DNA from: a virus
Taxonomy: Duplodnaviria; Heunggongvirae; Uroviricota; Caudoviricetes
Strand: one strand, 5' to 3'
Virus record (IMG/VR): IMGVR_UViG_2529293069_000013
DNA length: 19,848 nucleotides
The notes beneath the pieces were generated by a model. The model was not told the DNA's origin. It searched no databases and saw only the letters and a list, made by a program, of their open reading frames with translations. Below, in pieces: positions 664 through 17,427 of the stretch; the first letter of the stretch is position 1; every line of letters begins with the position of its first letter. The position numbers and the translations under genes were made by a program.

Positions 664-2169
664 TCATGGCATGGCCATGAGCATTTTCACGTCCGCATCA
701 CCGTCTGCTGACGTCTGTGGCACGCCACCCTGTACCGCAGCCGGTGAATGGTTCGCCATGATGCGTTCAAACAGGGCGGTTGTGGATGCAGAGACCGGTT
801 CTGCCTTACCTGATCCCGCAGCCAGCACAGCCCGGGCGCTCTCCACAGTCATTCCCGGGCAGGCAGCCAGCTGTTCAGCCTGCGCCTCAGCCCCTTTTGC
901 CTCATCCAGTGCCATGATCTGATCACGGAGTGAGGGTCCGGCATCCGCCTGCGGTGAAGCAGCCAGGATCGGGCGGGCTTTTTCCACCGTCATCTCCGGC
1001 ATCGCCGCCAGCGTTGCCGCCAGTTGTTCACGACCGTTCGCGTCTTCACACGCCATAATGCGATCGGCTTCACTCTGCGTGGATGCCACCGGCTGCTGCG
1101 GTGCCGCCGCAGCCAGAATCGCCCGGGCCTGTTCAACGCTCATGCCCTGTTGTCCTGCCAGCATCGTGGCAAGCTGTTCACGTCCTTTCGCTTCCTGGCA
1201 TGTCAGGATCCCCATCACTCGCTGGTTCTCCTGCGCGGCGGCTTCCGTTGCAGTTAATTGCGGCATAGTGCCTCCTCTGACATTACTGTTCAGCGCCGTG
1301 GCCATCACACTGATGGCATCCGACGCATTGACTAATTCATCCGCCAGCCCGGCATCAATGCCGGACTGACCTTCAAAAACGGCGGCCTCTGTTCCCGTGA
1401 CGGCATCAACAGACAGACCGGTAAACATCGCCACTTTTTCGGCAAACATCCGGCGCGCCGCATCAATGCGCTGCTGCATGTCCTGGCGAACCTCTGCCGG
1501 TAAGGCTTCAAACTGATTGCCATCCACCTTGTGCGCCCCTGAGTAAATCAGCGTGATATCCACACCGGCCTGCGCCAGATGACCGGCATAGCTGACATGG
1601 CTCATCATCACGCCAATGGAGCCGATACGGGATGTCTGGGTAACCAGCCGTCGGGAGCAGGCCGACGCCAGCAGCATGGCTGCAGAACAGGCCGTGTCAT
1701 TGCACAGTGCCCAGACCGGCTTCTGCTGACGGAGGCGGTAAATCATGTCAGCGCAGTCAAACGCGCCGGCGGCCTGCCCGCCCGGACTGTCAATGTCCAG
1801 CAGTACGCCCCGCACCTGGCTATCCGCCATTGCCTGCTGAAGACAGGCGACAATGCCGTCATAGCCTGTCATTCCGGAAAATGGCCGCATACCCCCCAGC
1901 CGGTGCACCAGCGTGCCGGTCACCGGCAGTACAGCAATACCGTTCACCACCCGGTAAACACGGGCCGGTCGTTTACCTCCGGCCATGTACTCGTCCGTTT
2001 CAGCCAGCATTCCGGGAGCATCAAGCTGTACCTGCTGCTGTGGTACCGAAAGACTTGCTGCCCCCATCTCGCGCCCGAGCGCGCAAAAGAAAACCCGCGC
2101 ATAGGCGGGCTCCAGAAGCAGCGGTTCATTGAATGCTGCGGCAATAATGTGTGAAAGATTACGTCTCAC
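664..2169 (-). CDS. C: Prohead protease / minor capsid protein C (S49 peptidase) with a C-terminal Nu3-like scaffold region carrying three tandem repeats; GTG start
   Basis: 501-aa ORF; N-terminal 300 aa align with lambda gpC (AFNEPLLLEPAYARVFF, VLLDIDSPGG, KPVWALCNDTACSAA, GSIGVMM, SGAHKVDGN); start codon at 2169..2167 is GTG, preceded by AAGAGGAG. Confidence 0.9.
   Translation of the reverse strand: MRRNLSHIIAAAFNEPLLLEPAYARVFFCALGREMGAASLSVPQQQVQLDAPGMLAETDEYMAGGKRPARVYRVVNGIAVLPVTGTLVHRLGGMRPFSGMTGYDGIVACLQQAMADSQVRGVLLDIDSPGGQAAGAFDCADMIYRLRQQKPVWALCNDTACSAAMLLASACSRRLVTQTSRIGSIGVMMSHVSYAGHLAQAGVDITLIYSGAHKVDGNQFEALPAEVRQDMQQRIDAARRMFAEKVAMFTGLSVDAVTGTEAAVFEGQSGIDAGLADELVNASDAISVMATALNSNVRGGTMPQLTATEAAAQENQRVMGILTCQEAKGREQLATMLAGQQGMSVEQARAILAAAAPQQPVASTQSEADRIMACEDANGREQLAATLAAMPEMTVEKARPILAASPQADAGPSLRDQIMALDEAKGAEAQAEQLAACPGMTVESARAVLAAGSGKAEPVSASTTALFERIMANHSPAAVQGGVPQTSADGDADVKMLMAMP
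818..1260. repeat. Three tandem ~141-150-bp repeats inside the C/Nu3 coding region, each encoding one RIM..EAKGREQLA..PGMTVE.AR.ILAA unit
   Basis: DNA copies begin at 818, 959 and 1109 (gcagccag..cgggc..); the protein shows three successive copies of a motif that I recall as single-copy at the lambda C/Nu3 C-terminus. Confidence 0.6.
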
Positions 2170-3706
2170 GGGGTGTTGTCTCCTCTTCCGGCCTGCGACT
2201 CTCCGCTATCTGCTGCTGATACGCCTGCGCTATCCACACCGGACGTGAGAGTCCGGCTTTTTGCCGCTCTGCAGATTCCCTGACCTGCTGGCGGAAAATG
2301 TCCTGATAATCCTCGCCCATCAGCGCCAGCTCTTTCTCATACGTGCTCAGTCCGGCCTCAATGCGCATCACCGATTCCTGAACCTCCTTGAGCCCGTCAA
2401 TGGCCATTCTTCCGGCTCCAATCCACTCTGCCCGTGACCAGGCTGATCGCGCCTGATAAAAATCAAAACGTGCCCGTGGCGGACGAATAATCCCCCGAAG
2501 AAGTGCCTCTTCCAGCCAGCAGGAAAACATCTGCGTGGCCAGCCGGGCCGCAATAAATTTTCGCCGCCCCATAAAATAGCGCCACGACTCATTGGCGGAG
2601 GCGCGGGCACTTGAGTAACTGACCTTCGAGTAATCACGGGACAACTGTTCGTAGGAAACGCCAAGACCGGCGGCGATATACCGCAGCAACGCCTGTTCAA
2701 GCGCAGAAAATCCATTGTCTGAATCCTGCGCAGTCTGTAGTTTCAGATCATCACCAGGGAAAAGGTGCGGAATTTTGACACCGCCCAGTGTCACGTTATT
2801 CGTGTCATACCAGCTGGAGAACTTCTCCAGAATATTAATAAGCGGATTATCTTTCTGCTCCTGTGGCGCGCCGGCGATATATTCAAAGGCCTTTTCGGTA
2901 TCAAGTTCACTTTCAATCGTCGCTGCATACATCGCCTTCACTATGGCCGACTGAAGCTGTGTTGCCTGCAGGGAATCGAGCATCTTCAGCCGTTCCATGA
3001 CGCTGTAAAACTGGTTGGCCCCACGGGTCTGCCCGTCCTCCACCGGCTCGAAAATATGCAGCATGGCCGGACGCCCGGTGGGAAGTTCACGCGGGATCCG
3101 TTCCCATCGTCCACTCCCGGAGAACGGAAAATCATCCTCACAGATATGGTACGCAACGGCACGGCCATATCGATCGACCTCCACCCCGGCCCGCAGAAAA
3201 CGGTTCCCCATACCGTGTCCTGGCGTGTCCACCCGTTTCGGACTCACGGCTTTAAAACGCGTACGGAATAACTGCGTGGTTTCCGTATCCCAGACCGGCT
3301 GCACAAAGATTTCGCCGTTAAACGCATGAACGCCCACACCTTCACGGATAAATTCCGTGAACGTGCGTTTTCCTTCCACGTCGATCTCGCCAGACATCCC
3401 TTCGGCGTATTCCGACCAGGCCGCCTCCACCTCATCGACAAAGCTTTTTGCTGCGGTCTCCCGCATCCCCAGCCAGCGCCAGTTCGGACGGTAGCTGATC
3501 AGAAACATATGCCCGACAATGTGATCCTTATGCAGAGCCACCGCATTAGCCGCTATTCCGTTATTGCGCACCAGATCATCTGCCCGGGCATTCCCCAGAC
3601 GCAACGCGGGCAGCAGGGCCGCATCGGCACTCTGCGCCGGTGGCAACCACTCAGCCATTTGCCCGCCAAATACCTGCACCGCCCCCGTTGTAGCTGAGAC
3701 TCTCAC
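2159..3706 (-). CDS. B: Portal protein B. The track ORF starts at GTG 3706; the lambda-like N-terminus (ATG 3752..3750) is in another frame, so there is an apparent frameshift near 3668-3670
   Basis: 515-aa ORF aligns with lambda gpB over most of its length (AALLP..GNARADDLVRNNG, FEPVEDGQTRGAN, AMYAATIESELDT, GLGVSYEQLSR). The ATG overlapping the W stop encodes MKRTPVLIDVNGVPLRESLSYNGGGAG, matching the gpB N-terminus, then hits TGA at 3653-3651. Confidence 0.85.
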   Translation of the reverse strand: MRVSATTGAVQVFGGQMAEWLPPAQSADAALLPALRLGNARADDLVRNNGIAANAVALHKDHIVGHMFLISYRPNWRWLGMRETAAKSFVDEVEAAWSEYAEGMSGEIDVEGKRTFTEFIREGVGVHAFNGEIFVQPVWDTETTQLFRTRFKAVSPKRVDTPGHGMGNRFLRAGVEVDRYGRAVAYHICEDDFPFSGSGRWERIPRELPTGRPAMLHIFEPVEDGQTRGANQFYSVMERLKMLDSLQATQLQSAIVKAMYAATIESELDTEKAFEYIAGAPQEQKDNPLINILEKFSSWYDTNNVTLGGVKIPHLFPGDDLKLQTAQDSDNGFSALEQALLRYIAAGLGVSYEQLSRDYSKVSYSSARASANESWRYFMGRRKFIAARLATQMFSCWLEEALLRGIIRPPRARFDFYQARSAWSRAEWIGAGRMAIDGLKEVQESVMRIEAGLSTYEKELALMGEDYQDIFRQQVRESAERQKAGLSRPVWIAQAYQQQIAESRRPEEETTPRET

Positions 3707-11830: not shown

Positions 11831-12031
11831 GAAAATAAAGGGATAACGATGATAGTTTGAGAAAAACAGAAATAACACTTTTGTGGCAAAGCATGGTGCC
11901 GGGTGCCTCCCGGTGAATTCAGTATCAGCACCTGAATCCGCGATTACCCCATATTCCTTCTTGCTGATTGCCCCACCGCACAGGGGGATTCACCATGCAG
12001 AAGTGTTTTTAATAAACAGCAAACAAAAAAA

Positions 12032-12797: not shown

Positions 12798-12874
12798 TGG
12801 TGCGTTGTACTGGGTTCGAACCAGTGACCGATTGCTTAGAAGGCAATTGCTCTGTCCGGCTGAGCTAAAAACGC
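12798..12874 (-). tRNA. tRNA-Arg (anticodon UCU)
   Basis: 77-nt cloverleaf GCGTTTT-TA-GCTC..GAGC-ATTGC-CTTCTAA-GCAAT-..-CTGG-TTCGAAC-CCAG-ACAACGC-A-CCA; anticodon loop CU-UCU-AA. Confidence 0.85.
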
Positions 12875-12887
12875 AGAATACCGATAA

Positions 12888-12964
12888 TGGACCGCCATCG
12901 GAGACTCGAACCCCGCGAAACCAGCTTCGAAGGCTGGCGTTCTATCCCGATGAGCTAATGGCGG
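12888..12964 (-). tRNA. tRNA-Arg (anticodon UCG)
   Basis: 77-nt cloverleaf with anticodon arm CCAGC-CTTCGAA-GCTGG, T-arm CGGGG-TTCGAGT-CTCCG and a 7-bp acceptor stem plus TCCA; the D-stem has one mismatch. Confidence 0.75.
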
Positions 12965-12971
12965 TATGTGA

Positions 12972-13047
12972 TGGTGGCCCTTGCTGGATTTGAACCAGCG
13001 GCCTGGCGATTATGAGTCGCTCGCTCTCACCACTGAGCTAAAGGGCC
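12972..13047 (-). tRNA. tRNA-Ile2 (anticodon CAU, ileX/ileZ-like; Met cannot be excluded)
   Basis: GGCCCTTTAGCTCAGTGGTGAGAGCGAGCGACTCATAATCGCCAGGCCGCTGGTTCAAATCCAGCAAGGGCCACCA is very similar to E. coli ileX as I recall it; anticodon loop CU-CAU-AA. Confidence 0.85.
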
Positions 13048-15366: not shown

Positions 15367-15645
15367 TTACCTCCAGATGCGTTGCTGGAATGTGCGGGAC
15401 GGACGCGGTGGGCGTTCGGAGTAAGGAAGCCTGACGGAGATTATCCAGTGACGATAATCGAGACTGAGGGCTTTCTTAACCTCGTATCCGCGCCTGCGGT
15501 AACACTGAATCAGCCATTCAGCCTGTTCTTCGGTGCAGGGGTCGTGCTGATACCAGTCAGATTTGAATGCATGAGAACGCCGCCCGTGCCTGCTGGCAGG
15601 GGCGGCAGAGTTATCCGAATTGTAAAATTTGGTATCGTGCGCCAT
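15367..15645 (-). CDS. Hypothetical protein, 92 aa (track ORF trimmed to ATG 15645 because the upstream part overlaps the hok terminator)
   Basis: MAHDTKFYNSDNSAAPASRHGRRSHAFKSDWYQHDPCTEEQAEWLIQCYRRRGYEVKK...; occupies the position of rem in Qin; weak RBS. Confidence 0.4.
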   Translation of the reverse strand: MAHDTKFYNSDNSAAPASRHGRRSHAFKSDWYQHDPCTEEQAEWLIQCYRRRGYEVKKALSLDYRHWIISVRLPYSERPPRPSRTFQQRIWR

Positions 15646-15711
15646 CTGTTTTCTCTGCTGGCGCAGCAGGTGCCAGTTGTTCAGGCTGACGGATGGATTG
15701 TAAACCAGAAC

Positions 15712-15744
15712 GACCAGAAAAAACAAAACCCGCCGAAGCGGGTT
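15712..15744 (-). terminator. Intrinsic terminator of the hok-like mRNA (stem AACCCGC-UUCG-GCGGGUU followed by UUUGUUUUUU)
   Basis: Hairpin 15727..15744 with a UUCG tetraloop; the minus-strand U-tract corresponds to the plus-strand A-run 15712..15726. Confidence 0.55.
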
Positions 15745-15812
15745 AAGTGCGGGTGCGTTGAGGATGCCTGACACATCAGCGGTGGCGAGGGATTTCTCCC
15801 CCGCCTGGTCTC

Positions 15813-15968
15813 TTACTCCTCAGGTTCGTAAGCTGTGAAGACAGCGACCTCCGTCTGGCCGGTTCGGATTCGTACCTCGCAGAGGTCTTTCCTCGTTACC
15901 AGTGCCGTCACTATGACGGTTAAACAGATGACGATCAGGGCGATTAACATCGCCTTTTGCTGCTTCAT
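15813..15968 (-). CDS. hok: Hok/Gef-family type I toxin, 51 aa
   Basis: MKQQKAMLIALIVICLTVIVTALVTRKDLCEVRIRTGQTEVAVFTAYEPEE against plasmid R1 Hok [58 protein letters not shown] RBS 9 nt upstream of ATG 15968. Confidence 0.8.
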   Translation of the reverse strand: MKQQKAMLIALIVICLTVIVTALVTRKDLCEVRIRTGQTEVAVFTAYEPEE

Positions 15969-16143
15969 AACCTGCTTCTCCTTGCCTTTCGGCGCGTAAG
16001 AGGCTAACCTACGTTTGTGAAGCATAGATTGGGCCTCAGATTAATGTTAAGCGTCTTGCAGGACGCGTAATGTTAACTGGGGCTTTTCTCTGTCTGCCTT
16101 ACGGTGGCATGCCCGAGGCAGACAGCCTCAAGCACCCGCAGCA

Positions 16144-16171
16144 ATTCTACTTAACTCTCGCTTTACAGCAA
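16144..16171 (-). promoter_or_regulatory. Putative promoter of the hok-like mRNA (-35 TTGCTG, 16-bp spacer, -10 TAGAAT)
   Basis: -35 at 16171..16166 and -10 at 16149..16144; the predicted transcript of about 420 nt ends at the 15712..15744 terminator, typical for hok mRNAs. Confidence 0.4.
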
Positions 16172-16211
16172 ACCGTTTTGCCCGATATGGGAATTCCCAT
16201 ACGGAATGAAT

Positions 16212-16316
16212 TCAGTTCCCCAGGCGCTCCATCAAAAACACAACCAGGCAGTAAACACCCACAACAGCAATAACAGCCAGAGCGCCTTCCATTACCAGTG
16301 AAATATCATCCGACAT
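16212..16316 (-). CDS. Small hydrophobic peptide, 34 aa, not in the ORF track
   Basis: ATG 16316 preceded by AAGGGAGGGAAT; hand translation MSDDISLVMEGALAVIAVVGVYCLVVFLMERLGN contains one transmembrane segment. Confidence 0.4.
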   Translation of the reverse strand: MSDDISLVMEGALAVIAVVGVYCLVVFLMERLGN

Positions 16317-16351
16317 ATTCCCTCCCTTGGTGTGAATCCCGGCGAACGTTT

Positions 16352-16429
16352 TTACCCCCACCGACAAATAACATATACTAGAAAAGCAATAGCTATAGCA
16401 ACGCCTGCAAATGCATCTGGCCGGCTCAT
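16352..16429 (-). CDS. Small hydrophobic peptide, 25 aa, translationally coupled to the 187-aa gene
   Basis: ATG 16429..16427 overlaps the upstream TGA (ATGA); RBS GGGGGAG; hand translation MSRPDAFAGVAIAIAFLVYVICRWG. Confidence 0.4.
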   Translation of the reverse strand: MSRPDAFAGVAIAIAFLVYVICRWG

Positions 16430-16989
16430 TGGTTCTCCCCCTGTGTCGCTTCTACTGCGATCTGACTGGCGTATTCGTTAATGGTAACGATAAGTTCTTG
16501 CTCGACCTCATCCAGACAACTACCGATACCTCGCCTGTCCACTTCAGAAGCATCGAAATCTGCACGAAGCCTGGCGACCTTCAGGATTGCGGACAACACC
16601 TCATCAGGGATTGCCGGAGAGTTGGTTGACGTTTCCGAGATTATCCGAAAATTATTGGTTGACGAACCCTTATTTTCCCGAAAGTTTCCAGCCTGAAGCA
16701 TGGCGGCGCGGTGACACCAGATAATCCAGCCAAGCGCCATATCCCATGCCATGTATTCTCTATCGCCATTTTTTGCTCTGCGGCGATCTACAGATTCCCC
16801 GAAACGCTTCTCCATAAATAATTCATAGGCTGCCCGTTCATCCGATACTGATGCCAGTGATGCCAGTGCAATTTTTAATGCGGTAAGCATGTTGTTTTGA
16901 TCTTCATCGAGTCCGAACGGTATTTCATCCCGTGATGACTCAATTCCGGTAATCGTGTTCTGTAGCCATTCTTTGGTTAATTCAGTCAT
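16426..16989 (-). CDS. Hypothetical protein, 187 aa, unknown function
   Basis: Long ORF preceded by a 125-bp intergenic gap containing a GNRA-tetraloop hairpin (16998..17015); no motif recognised. Confidence 0.6.
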   Translation of the reverse strand: MTELTKEWLQNTITGIESSRDEIPFGLDEDQNNMLTALKIALASLASVSDERAAYELFMEKRFGESVDRRRAKNGDREYMAWDMALGWIIWCHRAAMLQAGNFRENKGSSTNNFRIISETSTNSPAIPDEVLSAILKVARLRADFDASEVDRRGIGSCLDEVEQELIVTINEYASQIAVEATQGENQ

Positions 16990-17115
16990 TTTTCACTACC
17001 GCCCTTTCGGGCGGTCTCCTGATGTTCTGAGGGTGCAGGAATCCCTCCGGTTAAGGATTTAATAAAAATCATTTCTGATTTAAATTTTCAGTGTTTAGTT
17101 GTTGGTTTATAGCCT

Positions 17116-17427
17116 TTATGCTTCGGCCTTATTTCTCAGCCATACACAAACAGGACCATCTTCGGTGTCATGTATCGAACCGATAAACCATCCCTCACCT
17201 TCTGGTCGCTCAGGTTCCCATGCTGAAATATCAGGGCCATCTGCGTCCAGATTAAAATCATCTTCATCCATACTACGGATAGCCCACTGAAGATTATTTT
17301 TCTCCATCCAGGCGTTAAACTCTTCCGTTGAAATATATTCCCGACCATCACAGAATTTTTCATATTCAGGATGCGTCCAGCAGCCATATTCATTACGTTC
17401 CACTGGCATTTCTTTAATTGCGCTCAT
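17116..17427 (-). CDS. Hypothetical highly acidic, Trp-rich protein, 103 aa
   Basis: Roughly 28% Asp+Glu; ATGA overlap with the upstream gene; RBS AAGGGGGG. Confidence 0.6.
   Translation of the reverse strand: MSAIKEMPVERNEYGCWTHPEYEKFCDGREYISTEEFNAWMEKNNLQWAIRSMDEDDFNLDADGPDISAWEPERPEGEGWFIGSIHDTEDGPVCVWLRNKAEA

What the first reader, a model, noticed from the sequence alone, without database searches (positions are those of the whole stretch)
16212..17115. Isolated accessory operon: 187-aa unknown protein with two coupled small hydrophobic peptides, next to the hok locus
The 187-aa gene sits behind a 125-bp gap, apart from the tightly coupled upstream block. It is followed by a 25-aa ORF (16352..16429) whose ATG overlaps its stop and a 34-aa ORF (16212..16316), both with near-consensus Shine-Dalgarno sites and a predicted transmembrane helix; neither is in the ORF track. 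The layout suggests a membrane-targeting toxin or abortive-infection-type module. A plus-strand promoter-like site (-35 TTTACC 16351..16356, -10 TATACT 16374..16379) would give an RNA antisense to the 25-aa ORF's start region, as in type I toxin-antitoxin pairs.
Basis: partly seen in the sequence, partly recalled or inferred. Interest (0 to 1): 0.7.

Follow-up and report, generated by a model that had tools for sequence, protein, structure and literature searches.

The report
Small membrane-peptide genes beside prophage hok
Two tiny genes for membrane-spanning peptides lie between a mosaic phage gene and the hok toxin locus of an E. coli O157:H7 prophage; both are real, conserved genes (one is missing from genome annotations), but nothing indicates that they form a toxin-antitoxin or defence operon with the 187-aa protein.

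Summary
The window is an E. coli O157:H7 lambdoid prophage. The finding lies in the early-right accessory region, between replication gene P and hokD-DUF968-rusA-Q. All described features are present.

The 187-aa protein is a mosaic allele of the abundant "DUF551 domain-containing" prophage proteins, but it lacks the DUF551 domain. It is an interchangeable neighbour, not a fixed partner.

**ORF1 (25 aa)** belongs to an unannotated family of 25-27-aa single-helix peptides.
- Similar DNA occurs in about 30% of complete E. coli genomes.
- In 167/167 loci its ATG overlaps the stop (ATGA) of whichever gene precedes it.
- It is under purifying selection.
- It occurs with or without hok.

**ORF2 (34 aa)** is already annotated by PGAP.
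- A paralogue differing by 2 residues (XECs145) gave strong ribosome footprints in growing Sakai lysogens.
- A 50%-identical 29-aa form exists.
- Both forms were found only directly upstream of hok (153/153 loci).
- ORF2 plus a palindrome is an indel cassette flanked by direct repeats.

The proposed antisense promoter is no better than chance and is absent from divergent ORF1 relatives. No toxin, Hok/Gef or defence family matches.

Verdict: these are real small membrane-protein genes of a mosaic cassette. Their function is unknown, and the toxin-antitoxin or abortive-infection reading is unsupported.

The parts
16426..16989 (-). 187-aa gene (RefSeq WP_000137955.1). It is a mosaic allele of the prophage 'DUF551 domain-containing protein' pool that lacks the DUF551 domain itself. 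It is an interchangeable upstream neighbour of ORF1.
   Evidence: Searches give the ORF and its annotation. Pfam and NCBIfam give no hit. There are 4276 homologues, mostly carrying PF04448. Alignments show shared N-terminal and central modules and a missing DUF551 C-terminus. L066 has the same leader and the first ~122 residues at near-identity, but ends in DUF551.
16352..16429 (-). ORF1: 25-aa single-helix peptide gene (MSRPDAFAGVAIAIAFLVYVICRWG), unannotated. Its ATG overlaps the stop of the 187-aa gene (ATGA).
   Evidence: Searches give the ORF. Homologues of 25-27 aa keep the ATGA overlap in 167/167 loci. Window versus 933W-type comparison gives pS 0.72 against pN 0.26, Fisher p = 0.0007, the lowest ratio of all six frames. 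Across 38 DNA haplotypes, minimum changes by codon position are 17/14/46. There is an in-frame 6-nt indel. A hydrophobic core is present.
16435..16441 (-). Shine-Dalgarno of ORF1 (GGGGGAG), embedded in the last codons of the upstream gene.
   Evidence: One search shows the sequence. A GGAGG-like motif is kept at this spacing behind different upstream genes.
16212..16316 (-). ORF2: 34-aa single-helix peptide gene (MSDDISLVMEGALAVIAVVGVYCLVVFLMERLGN), RefSeq WP_001278460.1.
   Evidence: Searches give the ORF and its annotation. Variable columns by codon position are 3/1/9. A 29-30-aa type B relative at 50% identity exists, with variable columns 2/0/7. The paralogue XECs145 was ribosome-profiled in strain Sakai. 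ORF2 is followed by hok in 153/153 loci that extend far enough.
16320..16328 (-). Shine-Dalgarno of ORF2 (AAGGGAGGG).
   Evidence: One search shows the sequence. It is invariant apart from one G/A position in 34 haplotypes.
16342..16357 (-). Left direct repeat GGGTAAAAACGTTCGC. It spans the ORF1 stop codon and brackets the ORF2 cassette.
   Evidence: Searches show the repeat. Phages with ORF1 abutting hok carry a single copy, TGGGGGTAAAAACGGTTTGCGGG.
16168..16183 (-). Right direct repeat GGGCAAAACGGTTTGC. It overlaps the inferred hok -35 element.
16182..16204 (.). 23-nt near-perfect palindrome CCGTATGGGAATTCCCATATCGG just after the ORF2 stop. It is part of the ORF2 cassette and its role is unknown.
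   Evidence: It is also retained, together with a remnant of the ORF2 3' end, in PPompW phages. It is not followed by a T-run.
16144..16172 (-). Inferred hok promoter: -35 TTTGCT, 17-nt spacer, -10 TAGAAT.
   Evidence: This is my reading. The placement fits the Rfam match starting at 16137 and rests on recalled similarity to the R1 hok mRNA 5' end, not on a test. Homology between ORF2-type A, type B and ORF2-less loci resumes at the -10 region.
15813..16137 (-). hok/sok locus: the hok leader with the mok frame, and the Hok CDS at 15813..15968.
   Evidence: Rfam RF01794 scores 114.9 bits at 15963..16137. Pfam HOK_GEF gives E = 1.2e-23. PGAP annotates hokD.
16990..17115 (-). 126-nt leader before the 187-aa gene. 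It has a 7-bp GC hairpin with a GAAA loop (16998..17015). No consensus promoter or terminator was found.
   Evidence: The fold z-score is -3.5. The leader is identical in front of a DUF551-bearing allele in L066.
16351..16379 (+). Judged not to be a supported feature.
   Evidence: The match is 9/12 and at chance level. It is absent from 85/85 divergent ORF1 homologues. The hypothetical antisense RNA folds no better than shuffles, z = +0.81.

Best explanation
ORF1 and ORF2 are two independent, real genes for very small single-pass inner-membrane peptides. They belong to a mosaic accessory cassette in the early (delayed-early, nin/ea-type) regions of E. coli lambdoid prophages. The cassette is: variable upstream gene, then ORF1, then optional ORF2 with a palindrome, then hok/sok.

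**ORF1**
- Shown: its ATG overlaps the stop codon of whatever gene precedes it, and its Shine-Dalgarno lies inside that gene's last codons.
- Inferred: it is made by ribosomes that terminate on the preceding gene and restart at the overlapping ATGA. Its acidic N-flank and basic C-flank (..ICRW-G/R) predict an N-out/C-in orientation.

**ORF2**
- Shown: it has its own strong Shine-Dalgarno and is the core of a roughly 160-175-nt insertion/deletion unit bracketed by 16-nt direct repeats. A near-identical paralogue is transcribed and ribosome-occupied in uninduced, growing lysogens.
- Inferred: it behaves like a lysogen-expressed 'moron' peptide that cells tolerate, not like a silenced toxin.

**The 187-aa protein** is one of several interchangeable upstream genes. 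It is a DUF551-pool mosaic that has a different C-terminal module in place of the DUF551 domain.

**Biochemical role (not shown):** my inference is that the peptides act at the inner membrane, on membrane properties or on a membrane protein, as accessory factors alongside Hok. They are not a toxin-antitoxin pair.
For: **Context**
- The region is 100% identical to an O157:H7 prophage and lies between P and hokD-DUF968-rusA-Q, all on one strand.

**ORF1**
- Homologues were found in 537 IMG/VR stretches. Similar DNA is in 1633 of 5426 complete E. coli genomes.
- The ATGA overlap holds in 167/167 loci, behind at least five upstream tail classes.
- Downstream of ORF1 lies ORF2+hok (83 loci), hok directly (42) or something else, often a terminator (42).
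- Selection: pS 0.72 against pN 0.26, p = 0.0007. Changes by codon position are 17/14/46, and M1, W3, P4, A6, G11, A15, Y21, I23, C24, R25 and W26 are invariant. There is an in-frame indel.

**ORF2**
- PGAP annotates the CDS.
- Variable columns by codon position are 3/1/9.
- Type B shares 50% amino-acid identity although blastn finds no DNA similarity. Type A versus type B gives pS 0.57 against pN 0.31. Within type B the counts are 2/0/7.
- hok lies downstream in 77/77 and 76/76 loci that extend far enough.
- XECs145 in LB: RNA RPKM 79.1, footprint RPKM 346.1, RCV 4.35, coverage 0.99; predicted inner membrane (PMC5597208 S2 Table and other supplements).

**Other**
- Direct repeats bracket the cassette, and ORF2-less loci carry a single copy.
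- Both peptides have hydrophobic cores.
- The 187-aa protein is a mosaic.
Against: - There is no direct evidence of translation for ORF1. The Sakai study screened only ORFs of at least 30 aa.
- The footprints come from a paralogous copy, not this one. Reads in multi-copy prophage DNA can be ambiguous.
- No sigma-70-like promoter was found that would explain ORF2 expression in lysogens (and my reading of the sequence).
- Within each subtype the DNA is so similar that conservation alone cannot separate coding from RNA-level constraint. The ORF1-ORF2 block is less variable than the hok leader.
- For ORF2 type A versus type B, one antisense frame gives an equally low pN/pS.
- One of 78 loci has a frameshifted ORF1.
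- The function is inferred only from size, hydrophobicity and position.
Confidence: 0.65

Rival explanations
1. One reading: the 187-aa protein and the two peptides form a dedicated membrane-targeting toxin or abortive-infection operon. The 25-aa ORF would be held in check by a cis-encoded antisense RNA, as in type I toxin-antitoxin systems.
For: The peptides are small and hydrophobic and sit next to a true type I locus, hok/sok. A 9/12 promoter-like site lies antisense to the ORF1 start region.
Against: - The trio is not conserved: upstream partners vary, and ORF1 and ORF2 occur separately.
- The promoter-like site is at chance level and absent from 85/85 divergent ORF1 homologues.
- No terminator was found, and the putative antisense RNA has no unusual fold.
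- No Rfam hit lies outside hok/sok.
- There is no credible PADLOC match (best E = 0.024, 12-13 bits), and Pfam and NCBIfam give no toxin or defence-family match.
- The ORF2 paralogue is heavily translated in growing cells.
Confidence: 0.08
2. ORF1 acts mainly in cis. Its translation, forced by coupling to the upstream gene, brings ribosomes to the element that immediately follows it (the hok promoter, an intrinsic terminator, or ORF2). This would tune read-through transcription or hok expression, and the peptide would matter as a nascent chain rather than as a membrane protein.
For: - The ATGA coupling is universal.
- The ORF1 stop lies about 5-10 nt from the hok -35 element or from a terminator hairpin in many loci.
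- The C-terminal ICRW-G/R and the N-terminal W-P-E/D-A residues are nearly invariant.
- The size is similar to that of known regulatory leader peptides (my knowledge).
Against: The hydrophobic core is kept through conservative substitutions, which is typical of a membrane helix. The downstream element differs between loci, so no single cis target exists. A stop codon close to a terminator is commonplace. No attenuator-like alternative structures were identified.
Confidence: 0.1
3. One or both small ORFs are not functional genes. They would persist because they hitch-hike in a recently spread, recombining DNA block next to hok, or because the RNA or DNA itself (for example the hok upstream region) is what is conserved.
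For: Within each subtype the DNA is nearly identical, and even the ORF1-ORF2 spacer varies in only 3 of 35 columns. The ORF2 family is very narrow, with 6 clusters among 1.84 billion representatives. ORF1 was found only in Escherichia and Shigella, plus two likely contaminant contigs. PPompW phages keep only an ORF2 remnant, and one ORF1 copy is frameshifted.
Against: Divergent subtypes keep the reading frame, start codon, Shine-Dalgarno and peptide pattern, while synonymous sites are near saturation. ORF1 has an in-frame indel. The ORF2 paralogue gives ribosome footprints with RCV 4.35. ORF1 keeps the ATGA overlap and its Shine-Dalgarno behind unrelated genes.
Confidence: 0.1

Closest known systems
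XECs145, a 'novel small gene' of E. coli O157:H7 Sakai found by RIBOseq (Huecker et al. 2017, PMC5597208)
   Same: It is the same gene family as ORF2. The C-terminal 34 residues of XECs145 differ from the window's ORF2 at 2 positions (V8A, E30D). It was predicted to be an inner-membrane protein, and the authors note that it is annotated as hypothetical in another EHEC strain.
   Different: It is a paralogous copy in another prophage. It was called with a 20-residue N-terminal extension from a start upstream of the ATG used by PGAP. No function, hok linkage or ORF1 was reported there, and only ORFs of at least 30 aa were screened.
[quoted passage not shown]
   Same: These are small hydrophobic inner-membrane peptides in the same cassette. 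ORF2 was found only directly upstream of hok. ORF1 abuts the hok promoter in 933W-type phages.
   Different: ORF1 and ORF2 do not match the Hok/Gef model. They have no mok-like overlapping frame and no supported antisense RNA. The ORF2 paralogue is translated in growing cells. The Hok protein is identical whether ORF2 type A, ORF2 type B or no ORF2 is present, so there is no co-variation.
DUF551 (PF04448) domain-containing prophage proteins, such as P22 EaA-like proteins, Ea22 variant V2 of Stx phages and YfdS of CPS-53 (PMC10834534, PMC4776307)
   Same: The 187-aa protein shares its N-terminal and central modules with these proteins at 70-99% identity. L066 has the same leader and the same first ~122 residues but a DUF551 end. 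Members of this pool are the commonest upstream partner of ORF1.
   Different: The defining DUF551 domain is absent here. It is replaced by a roughly 60-residue helical module (phrog_14306). The domain's function is unknown in any case.
Small (under 50 aa) single-pass inner-membrane proteins of E. coli found by small-ORF searches and ribosome profiling (a general class, recalled from my own knowledge)
   Same: They share the size, a single hydrophobic helix, a strong Shine-Dalgarno and absence from standard annotation.
   Different: ORF1 and ORF2 are prophage-borne, multi-copy and part of a mosaic cassette. ORF1 is obligatorily overlapped with the preceding gene. No partner protein or phenotype is known.

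Membership tests
Type I toxin-antitoxin system | Small hydrophobic toxin ORF | tested here: met
   ORF1 (25 aa) and ORF2 (34 aa) each have a 15-aa hydrophobic core with mean Kyte-Doolittle 2.7-3.0.
Type I toxin-antitoxin system | Cis-encoded antisense RNA with its own promoter and terminator overlapping the toxin mRNA | tested here: not met
   The only candidate promoter matches 9/12 and is at chance level. It is absent from 85/85 divergent ORF1 homologues. No terminator-like site was found. The hypothetical RNA folds with z = +0.81. No Rfam match lies outside hok/sok. Transcript data would be needed to exclude it fully.
Type I toxin-antitoxin system | Toxin translation repressed in normally growing cells | tested here: not met
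   For ORF2, the paralogue XECs145 has footprint RPKM 346 and RCV 4.35 in LB-grown Sakai (PMC5597208 S2 Table). For ORF1 there are no data.
Type I toxin-antitoxin system | Toxicity on overexpression | not testable with these tools
   This requires induced expression in cells.
Hok/Gef family (PF01848) | Match to the Hok/Gef profile (N-terminal basic residues, a transmembrane helix and a periplasmic Cys-containing domain) | tested here: not met
   At an E-value limit of 10, neither ORF1 nor ORF2 (two variants each) matches any Pfam family. The neighbouring Hok scores E = 1.2e-23.
DUF551 domain-containing proteins (PF04448) | Presence of the DUF551 domain | tested here: not met
   The 187-aa protein has no Pfam hit. 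The alignment shows that the C-terminal ...PVTPDGWISCSERMP...WMPLPEPPQEV segment is missing.
DUF551 domain-containing proteins (PF04448) | Shared N-terminal and central modules and the same genomic slot as family members | tested here: met
   There are 4276 homologues, most carrying PF04448. L066 has an identical leader and the first ~122 residues at near-identity. The same downstream ORF1-ORF2-hok block follows.
Known anti-phage defence / abortive-infection systems (PADLOC-DB v2) | Match of any component to a defence-system model | tested here: not met
   The best hits are E = 0.024-0.027 at 12-13 bits, which are not credible. The three upstream neighbours checked (103, 62 and 118 aa) have no hits.
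Translationally coupled gene pair (termination-reinitiation at overlapping ATGA) | Start codon overlapping the upstream stop, with a Shine-Dalgarno inside the upstream gene, conserved across contexts | tested here: met
   The ATGA overlap holds in 167/167 ORF1 loci, behind at least five upstream tail classes, with a GGAGG-like motif 5-9 nt upstream. Functional coupling itself was not tested.
ORF2 / XECs145 small-protein family | Sequence identity to a peptide with ribosome-profiling support | tested here: met
   32 of 34 residues are identical to the C-terminal 34 residues of XECs145.

The most novel reading that the evidence does not exclude
ORF2 may be a dedicated, lysogen-expressed membrane partner of Hok, for example a peptide that buffers leaky Hok or times Hok-assisted lysis. 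ORF1 may be a universal micro-gene translated only when the upstream accessory gene is translated. If so, hok loci of lambdoid prophages would be multi-peptide membrane modules rather than simple two-part type I systems.

The evidence leaves this open. ORF2 of two deeply diverged types was found only directly upstream of hok (153/153 loci). Its paralogue is translated in uninduced lysogens. hok itself has been reported to aid release of Sp5 phage (PMC8621323).
Probability: 0.1. Interest if true: 0.65.

Novelty: new member of a known kind. Interest (0 to 1): 0.35.

Why it matters
**What is new.** ORF1 appears to be a real gene that standard annotation misses. It was not annotated in the RefSeq records checked, although similar DNA is present in about 30% of complete E. 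coli genomes, often in several copies, including Shiga-toxin phages and some large plasmids. Its invariable ATGA overlap with unrelated upstream genes is a clear natural example of a micro-gene whose expression is tied to its neighbour.

**Why the hok link is useful.** ORF2 was seen only next to hok, and a paralogue is translated in lysogens. This gives people who study prophage hok/sok loci, for example hokW-sokW in Sp5, two unrecognised membrane peptides that deletion constructs and phenotypes should take into account.

**What it does not show.** The module is not a new defence or toxin system. The 187-aa protein is an ordinary mosaic allele.

Tried and rejected
- **Large homologue search for ORF2:** A full HMMER scan of 1.84 billion representatives found only 6 near-identical clusters.
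- **Family libraries:** PHROGs, Pfam, NCBIfam and PADLOC gave nothing credible for either peptide.
- **Structure of the 187-aa protein:** the PDB sequence search found nothing. The AlphaFold2 model, built with a 35-sequence alignment, was all-helical but low-confidence (pLDDT 50.9, pTM 0.31). I ran no fold search because the matches would be meaningless.
- **Literature:** searches for the RefSeq accessions and for peptide strings found nothing in main texts. The EDL933 translatome supplements have no match. The hokW-sokW paper and a 2026 Hok survey do not mention upstream small ORFs.
- **K-12:** the CPS-53 yfdS region has no ORF1 motif.
- **Species-representative genomes:** ORF1 was found only in Escherichia and Shigella, plus two contigs (431 nt and 1780 nt) labelled Xanthomonas and Segatella. 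I take these to be contamination or mis-binning.
- **ORF1 as a frameshift-fused C-terminal anchor of the upstream protein:** considered and rejected. There is no slippery sequence before the stop in any context, whereas an ATG with a correctly spaced Shine-Dalgarno is always present.
- **ORF2 as a truncated Hok:** considered and rejected (the flanking charges are also opposite).
- **Promoter for ORF2 inside the conserved block:** I found no convincing sigma-70 promoter, and the candidates upstream of type B ORF2 are not conserved.
- **The palindrome after ORF2 as an intrinsic terminator:** rejected, because no T-run follows it on either strand.
Full report
**1. Where the window comes from**

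The region 16150..17130 is 100% identical to the chromosome of E. coli O157:H7 strain 493/89 and 99.9% identical to many other O157:H7 genomes. In that record it lies in a lambdoid prophage. The gene order, all on one strand (the window's - strand), is:
- cI-like repressor, cro, ydaT, a DnaT-like O protein, P, a DUF1627 protein
- four small hypothetical genes
- the 187-aa gene (WP_000137955.1)
- a 34-aa hypothetical gene (WP_001278460.1)
- hokD, a 92-aa gene, DUF968, rusA, Q, then three tRNAs

The finding therefore sits in the accessory region between the replication genes and the late-gene activator. This slot corresponds to lambda's nin region.

**2. Checking the observation**

The three ORFs, the ATGA overlap, the two Shine-Dalgarno sites, the gap (126 nt) and the + strand hexamers are all present. 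Both peptides have a hydrophobic core consistent with one transmembrane helix. By themselves such ORFs mean little, because 88 ORFs of at least 20 aa occur in this 5.3 kb. The promoter-like site matches only 9/12 of the consensus, and the region has 5 such sites against 2.6 +/- 1.5 in shuffles.

**3. The 187-aa protein**

It has no Pfam, NCBIfam, PDB or credible PADLOC match. It does have 4276 homologues, and almost all of the best ones are annotated "DUF551 domain-containing protein".

The alignment shows a modular family:
- an N-terminal segment
- a conserved central segment (VSDERAAYELFMEKRFGESVDRRRAKNGDREYMAWDMALGWIIWCHRAAMLQ)
- a linker
- an optional helical module
- a C-terminal DUF551 domain ending ...WMPLPEPPQEVRQ

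The window's protein has everything except the DUF551 domain. In IMG/VR locus L066 the same upstream gene, the identical 126-nt leader and the same first ~122 residues continue into a DUF551 domain. The 187-aa gene is therefore a domain-swap allele of a very common mosaic gene. DUF551 is described in the literature only as a portable domain of unknown function, found in Ea22 variant V2 and in YfdS (PMC10834534, PMC4776307). An AlphaFold2 model was all-helical but unreliable (pLDDT 50.9), so I did no fold search.

**4. ORF2 (34 aa)**

- **Annotation and frequency.** PGAP annotates it in every E. coli locus I inspected. Similar DNA is found in 732 of 5426 complete E. coli genomes.
- **Variation within type A.** Among 34 DNA haplotypes from 77 IMG/VR loci plus the window, variable columns fall 3/1/9 on codon positions 1/2/3.
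- **A diverged form.** tblastn found a 50%-identical relative (type B, VLVLKCALAIAAVMAIYCLAVVLMDRLSD) in phages Tritos, Evi and mEp460_ev081. blastn sees no DNA similarity there. Type B starts at a conserved GTG five nt after GGAGG, is 29 aa long, and varies 2/0/7 by codon position. Type A versus type B gives pS 0.57 and pN 0.31.
- **Translation.** The supplements of Huecker et al. 2017 list XECs145, whose last 34 residues differ from the window's ORF2 at two positions. In LB its values are RNA RPKM 79.1, ribosome-footprint RPKM 346.1, RCV 4.35 and coverage 0.99. It is predicted to be inner-membrane and is classed "real" (PMC5597208). A paralogue is therefore translated in growing, uninduced lysogens.
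- **Link to hok.** In every locus where the contig extends far enough, ORF2 is followed by hok: 77/77 for type A and 76/76 for type B, at a fixed distance of about 211 nt.
- **Narrow family.** Only 6 near-identical clusters appear among 1.84 billion representative proteins.

**5. ORF1 (25 aa)**

It is not annotated in the window's RefSeq twin or in the other E. coli loci checked. The evidence that it is real is as follows.
- **In-frame indel.** Prophages in which a DUF551 protein replaces the 187-aa gene have a 27-aa form, with an in-frame 6-nt insertion.
- **Diverged form.** Stx2 converting phage I (933W-like) and vB_EcoM-606R7 have a diverged 27-aa form (MTWPEAFANVGTVMAVVLVVYSICRWR). It follows an unrelated 131-aa gene and directly abuts the hok promoter, with no ORF2.
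- **Frequency.** A pattern search found 537 IMG/VR stretches. DNA similar to the 933W-type ORF1 is in 1633 of 5426 complete E. coli genomes, up to 7 places per genome, with 163 places on plasmids.
- **Coupling.** In all 167 loci analysed, the ATG overlaps the stop of an upstream ORF as ATGA. The upstream C-termini fall into at least five classes...PEPPQEVRQ...EATQGENQ...NIEQKVNQ...ISVEDVLR and ...VWRLEARQ. A GGAGG-like motif sits in the last codons of each.
- **Selection.** Window versus 933W-type gives pS 0.72 and pN 0.26 (Fisher p = 0.0007). This is the lowest ratio of the six frames.
- **Pattern of change.** Across 38 haplotypes of the 27-codon form, minimum changes by codon position are 17/14/46. 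Residues M1, W3, P4, A6, G11, A15, Y21, I23, C24, R25 and W26 are invariant.
- **Not tied to hok.** ORF1 is followed by ORF2+hok (83 loci), hok directly (42) or other sequence, often a terminator-like hairpin with a T-run (42).
- **Taxonomic range.** Among species-representative genomes it appears only in Escherichia and Shigella, apart from two short contigs that are probably contaminants.
- **No translation data.** The Sakai study screened only ORFs of at least 30 aa.

**6. Architecture of the cassette**

The conserved block begins about 23 nt before the ORF1 ATG, at its Shine-Dalgarno, and runs through hok.

ORF2 and the 23-nt palindrome that follows it (16182..16204) are bracketed by two direct repeats:
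- GGGTAAAAACGTTCGC (16342..16357)
- GGGCAAAACGGTTTGC (16168..16183)

Loci without ORF2 have a single copy, TGGGGGTAAAAACGGTTTGCGGG. ORF2 plus the palindrome is therefore a discrete insertion/deletion unit between ORF1 and the hok promoter. I infer that promoter to be -35 TTTGCT at 16172..16167 and -10 TAGAAT at 16149..16144, which fits the Rfam match starting at 16137.

PPompW phages keep only the last ~14 nt of ORF2 and the palindrome. The Hok protein is identical with type A ORF2, type B ORF2 or none. hok therefore does not need ORF2 and does not co-vary with it.

**7. The toxin-antitoxin or abortive-infection reading**

- The peptides do not match Hok/Gef or any other family.
- No component matches a defence model.
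- No RNA family other than sok is detected, even at E <= 1.
- The proposed antisense promoter is present in 83/83 near-identical ORF1 copies but in 0/85 divergent homologues. Its presence is explained by DNA identity, not by selection.
- The RNA it would produce has no terminator and folds no better than shuffles.
- Strong ribosome occupancy of the ORF2 paralogue in healthy cells argues against a silenced toxin.
- The three ORFs are not a conserved unit (sections 3-5).

**8. Most likely explanation**

ORF1 and ORF2 are independent, real genes for single-pass inner-membrane peptides within a mosaic accessory cassette.
- ORF1 is most likely translated by termination-reinitiation from whichever gene lies upstream. 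The conserved overlap and Shine-Dalgarno are shown; the coupling itself is inferred.
- ORF2 is translated from its own Shine-Dalgarno, and its paralogue is expressed in lysogens.

Their biochemical role is unknown. From size, hydrophobicity and position, I infer that they act at the membrane as accessory factors. The strict ORF2-to-hok linkage leaves open a functional tie to Hok. Hok has been reported to help release of Sp5 phage after induction (PMC8621323).

Each gets about 0.1 or less.

**9. Novelty and score**

ORF2 is already annotated, and a paralogue has published ribosome-profiling support. The 187-aa protein is an ordinary mosaic allele. ORF1 is, as far as the records and literature searched show, an unrecognised but widespread micro-gene with an invariable overlap to its neighbour. 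It is a new member of a known kind: small prophage membrane proteins. Interest is moderate to low (0.35).

Noticed in passing
window 16986..17115 (- strand): The 126-nt leader of the 187-aa gene contains a 7-bp GC hairpin with a GAAA loop (16998..17015) that ends 8 nt before the ATG (fold z = -3.5). It also contains a 28-aa ORF (16986..17072) whose TGA overlaps the 187-aa ATG, a second ATGA overlap. The whole leader is identical in L066, in front of a DUF551-bearing allele. It might control translation of the downstream gene.
   Followed up: partly
window 16342..16357 and 16168..16183; L171/L172 about 1195..1215: Sixteen-nt direct repeats (GGGTAAAAACGTTCGC and GGGCAAAACGGTTTGC) bracket ORF2 and its palindrome. 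Phages that lack ORF2 have one copy. This suggests gain or loss of the ORF2 cassette by recombination between short repeats.
   Followed up: partly
window 16182..16204: A 23-nt near-perfect palindrome centred on GAATTC lies just after the ORF2 stop and about 10 nt upstream of the inferred hok -35 element. It is perfect over 22-24 nt in other haplotypes. No T-run follows it, so it is not a canonical terminator. It could be a protein-binding site or an RNA processing site.
   Followed up: partly
L170 (Escherichia phage vB_EcoS-640R1) 935..1153: An unannotated ORF of 59-72 aa with two hydrophobic segments lies just upstream of hok, opposite a CDS annotated 'hornerin'. Small hydrophobic ORFs immediately upstream of prophage hok loci may be a wider pattern.
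   Followed up: no
L169 (Stx2a phage Stx2_14040 / PPompW) 1200..1250: Only the last ~14 nt of ORF2 and the palindrome survive here, downstream of the paa/adfO adhesin gene and a terminator. This looks like a decayed ORF2 cassette.
   Followed up: no
L260 (plasmid p1303_95) 1501..1590; ORF1-type DNA occurs at 163 places on plasmids, including plasmids of about 95 kb. There it again follows small hypothetical or DUF551 fragments and is not annotated.
   Followed up: no
window 11855..12027 (-) and 12801..13047 (-): There is an Rfam STnc100 sRNA match (100.8 bits) and three tRNA genes downstream of the Q gene. RefSeq annotates the tRNAs as Ile, Arg and Arg.
   Followed up: no
window 15367..15774 (-): The mechanical 135-aa ORF runs across the hok terminator (15727..15744). 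RefSeq calls only a 92-aa protein here (15367..15645), so the long ORF call is over-extended.
   Followed up: no
L006-L008 and L089-L168, about 2495..2587 or 1501..1590: Type B ORF2 is unannotated in the three phage GenBank records. Its true start appears to be the second GTG, because the preceding codon varies among GTG, GTC, GTT and ATG. It sits behind about 500 nt of non-coding DNA, so it probably has its own promoter, which I could not identify.
   Followed up: partly
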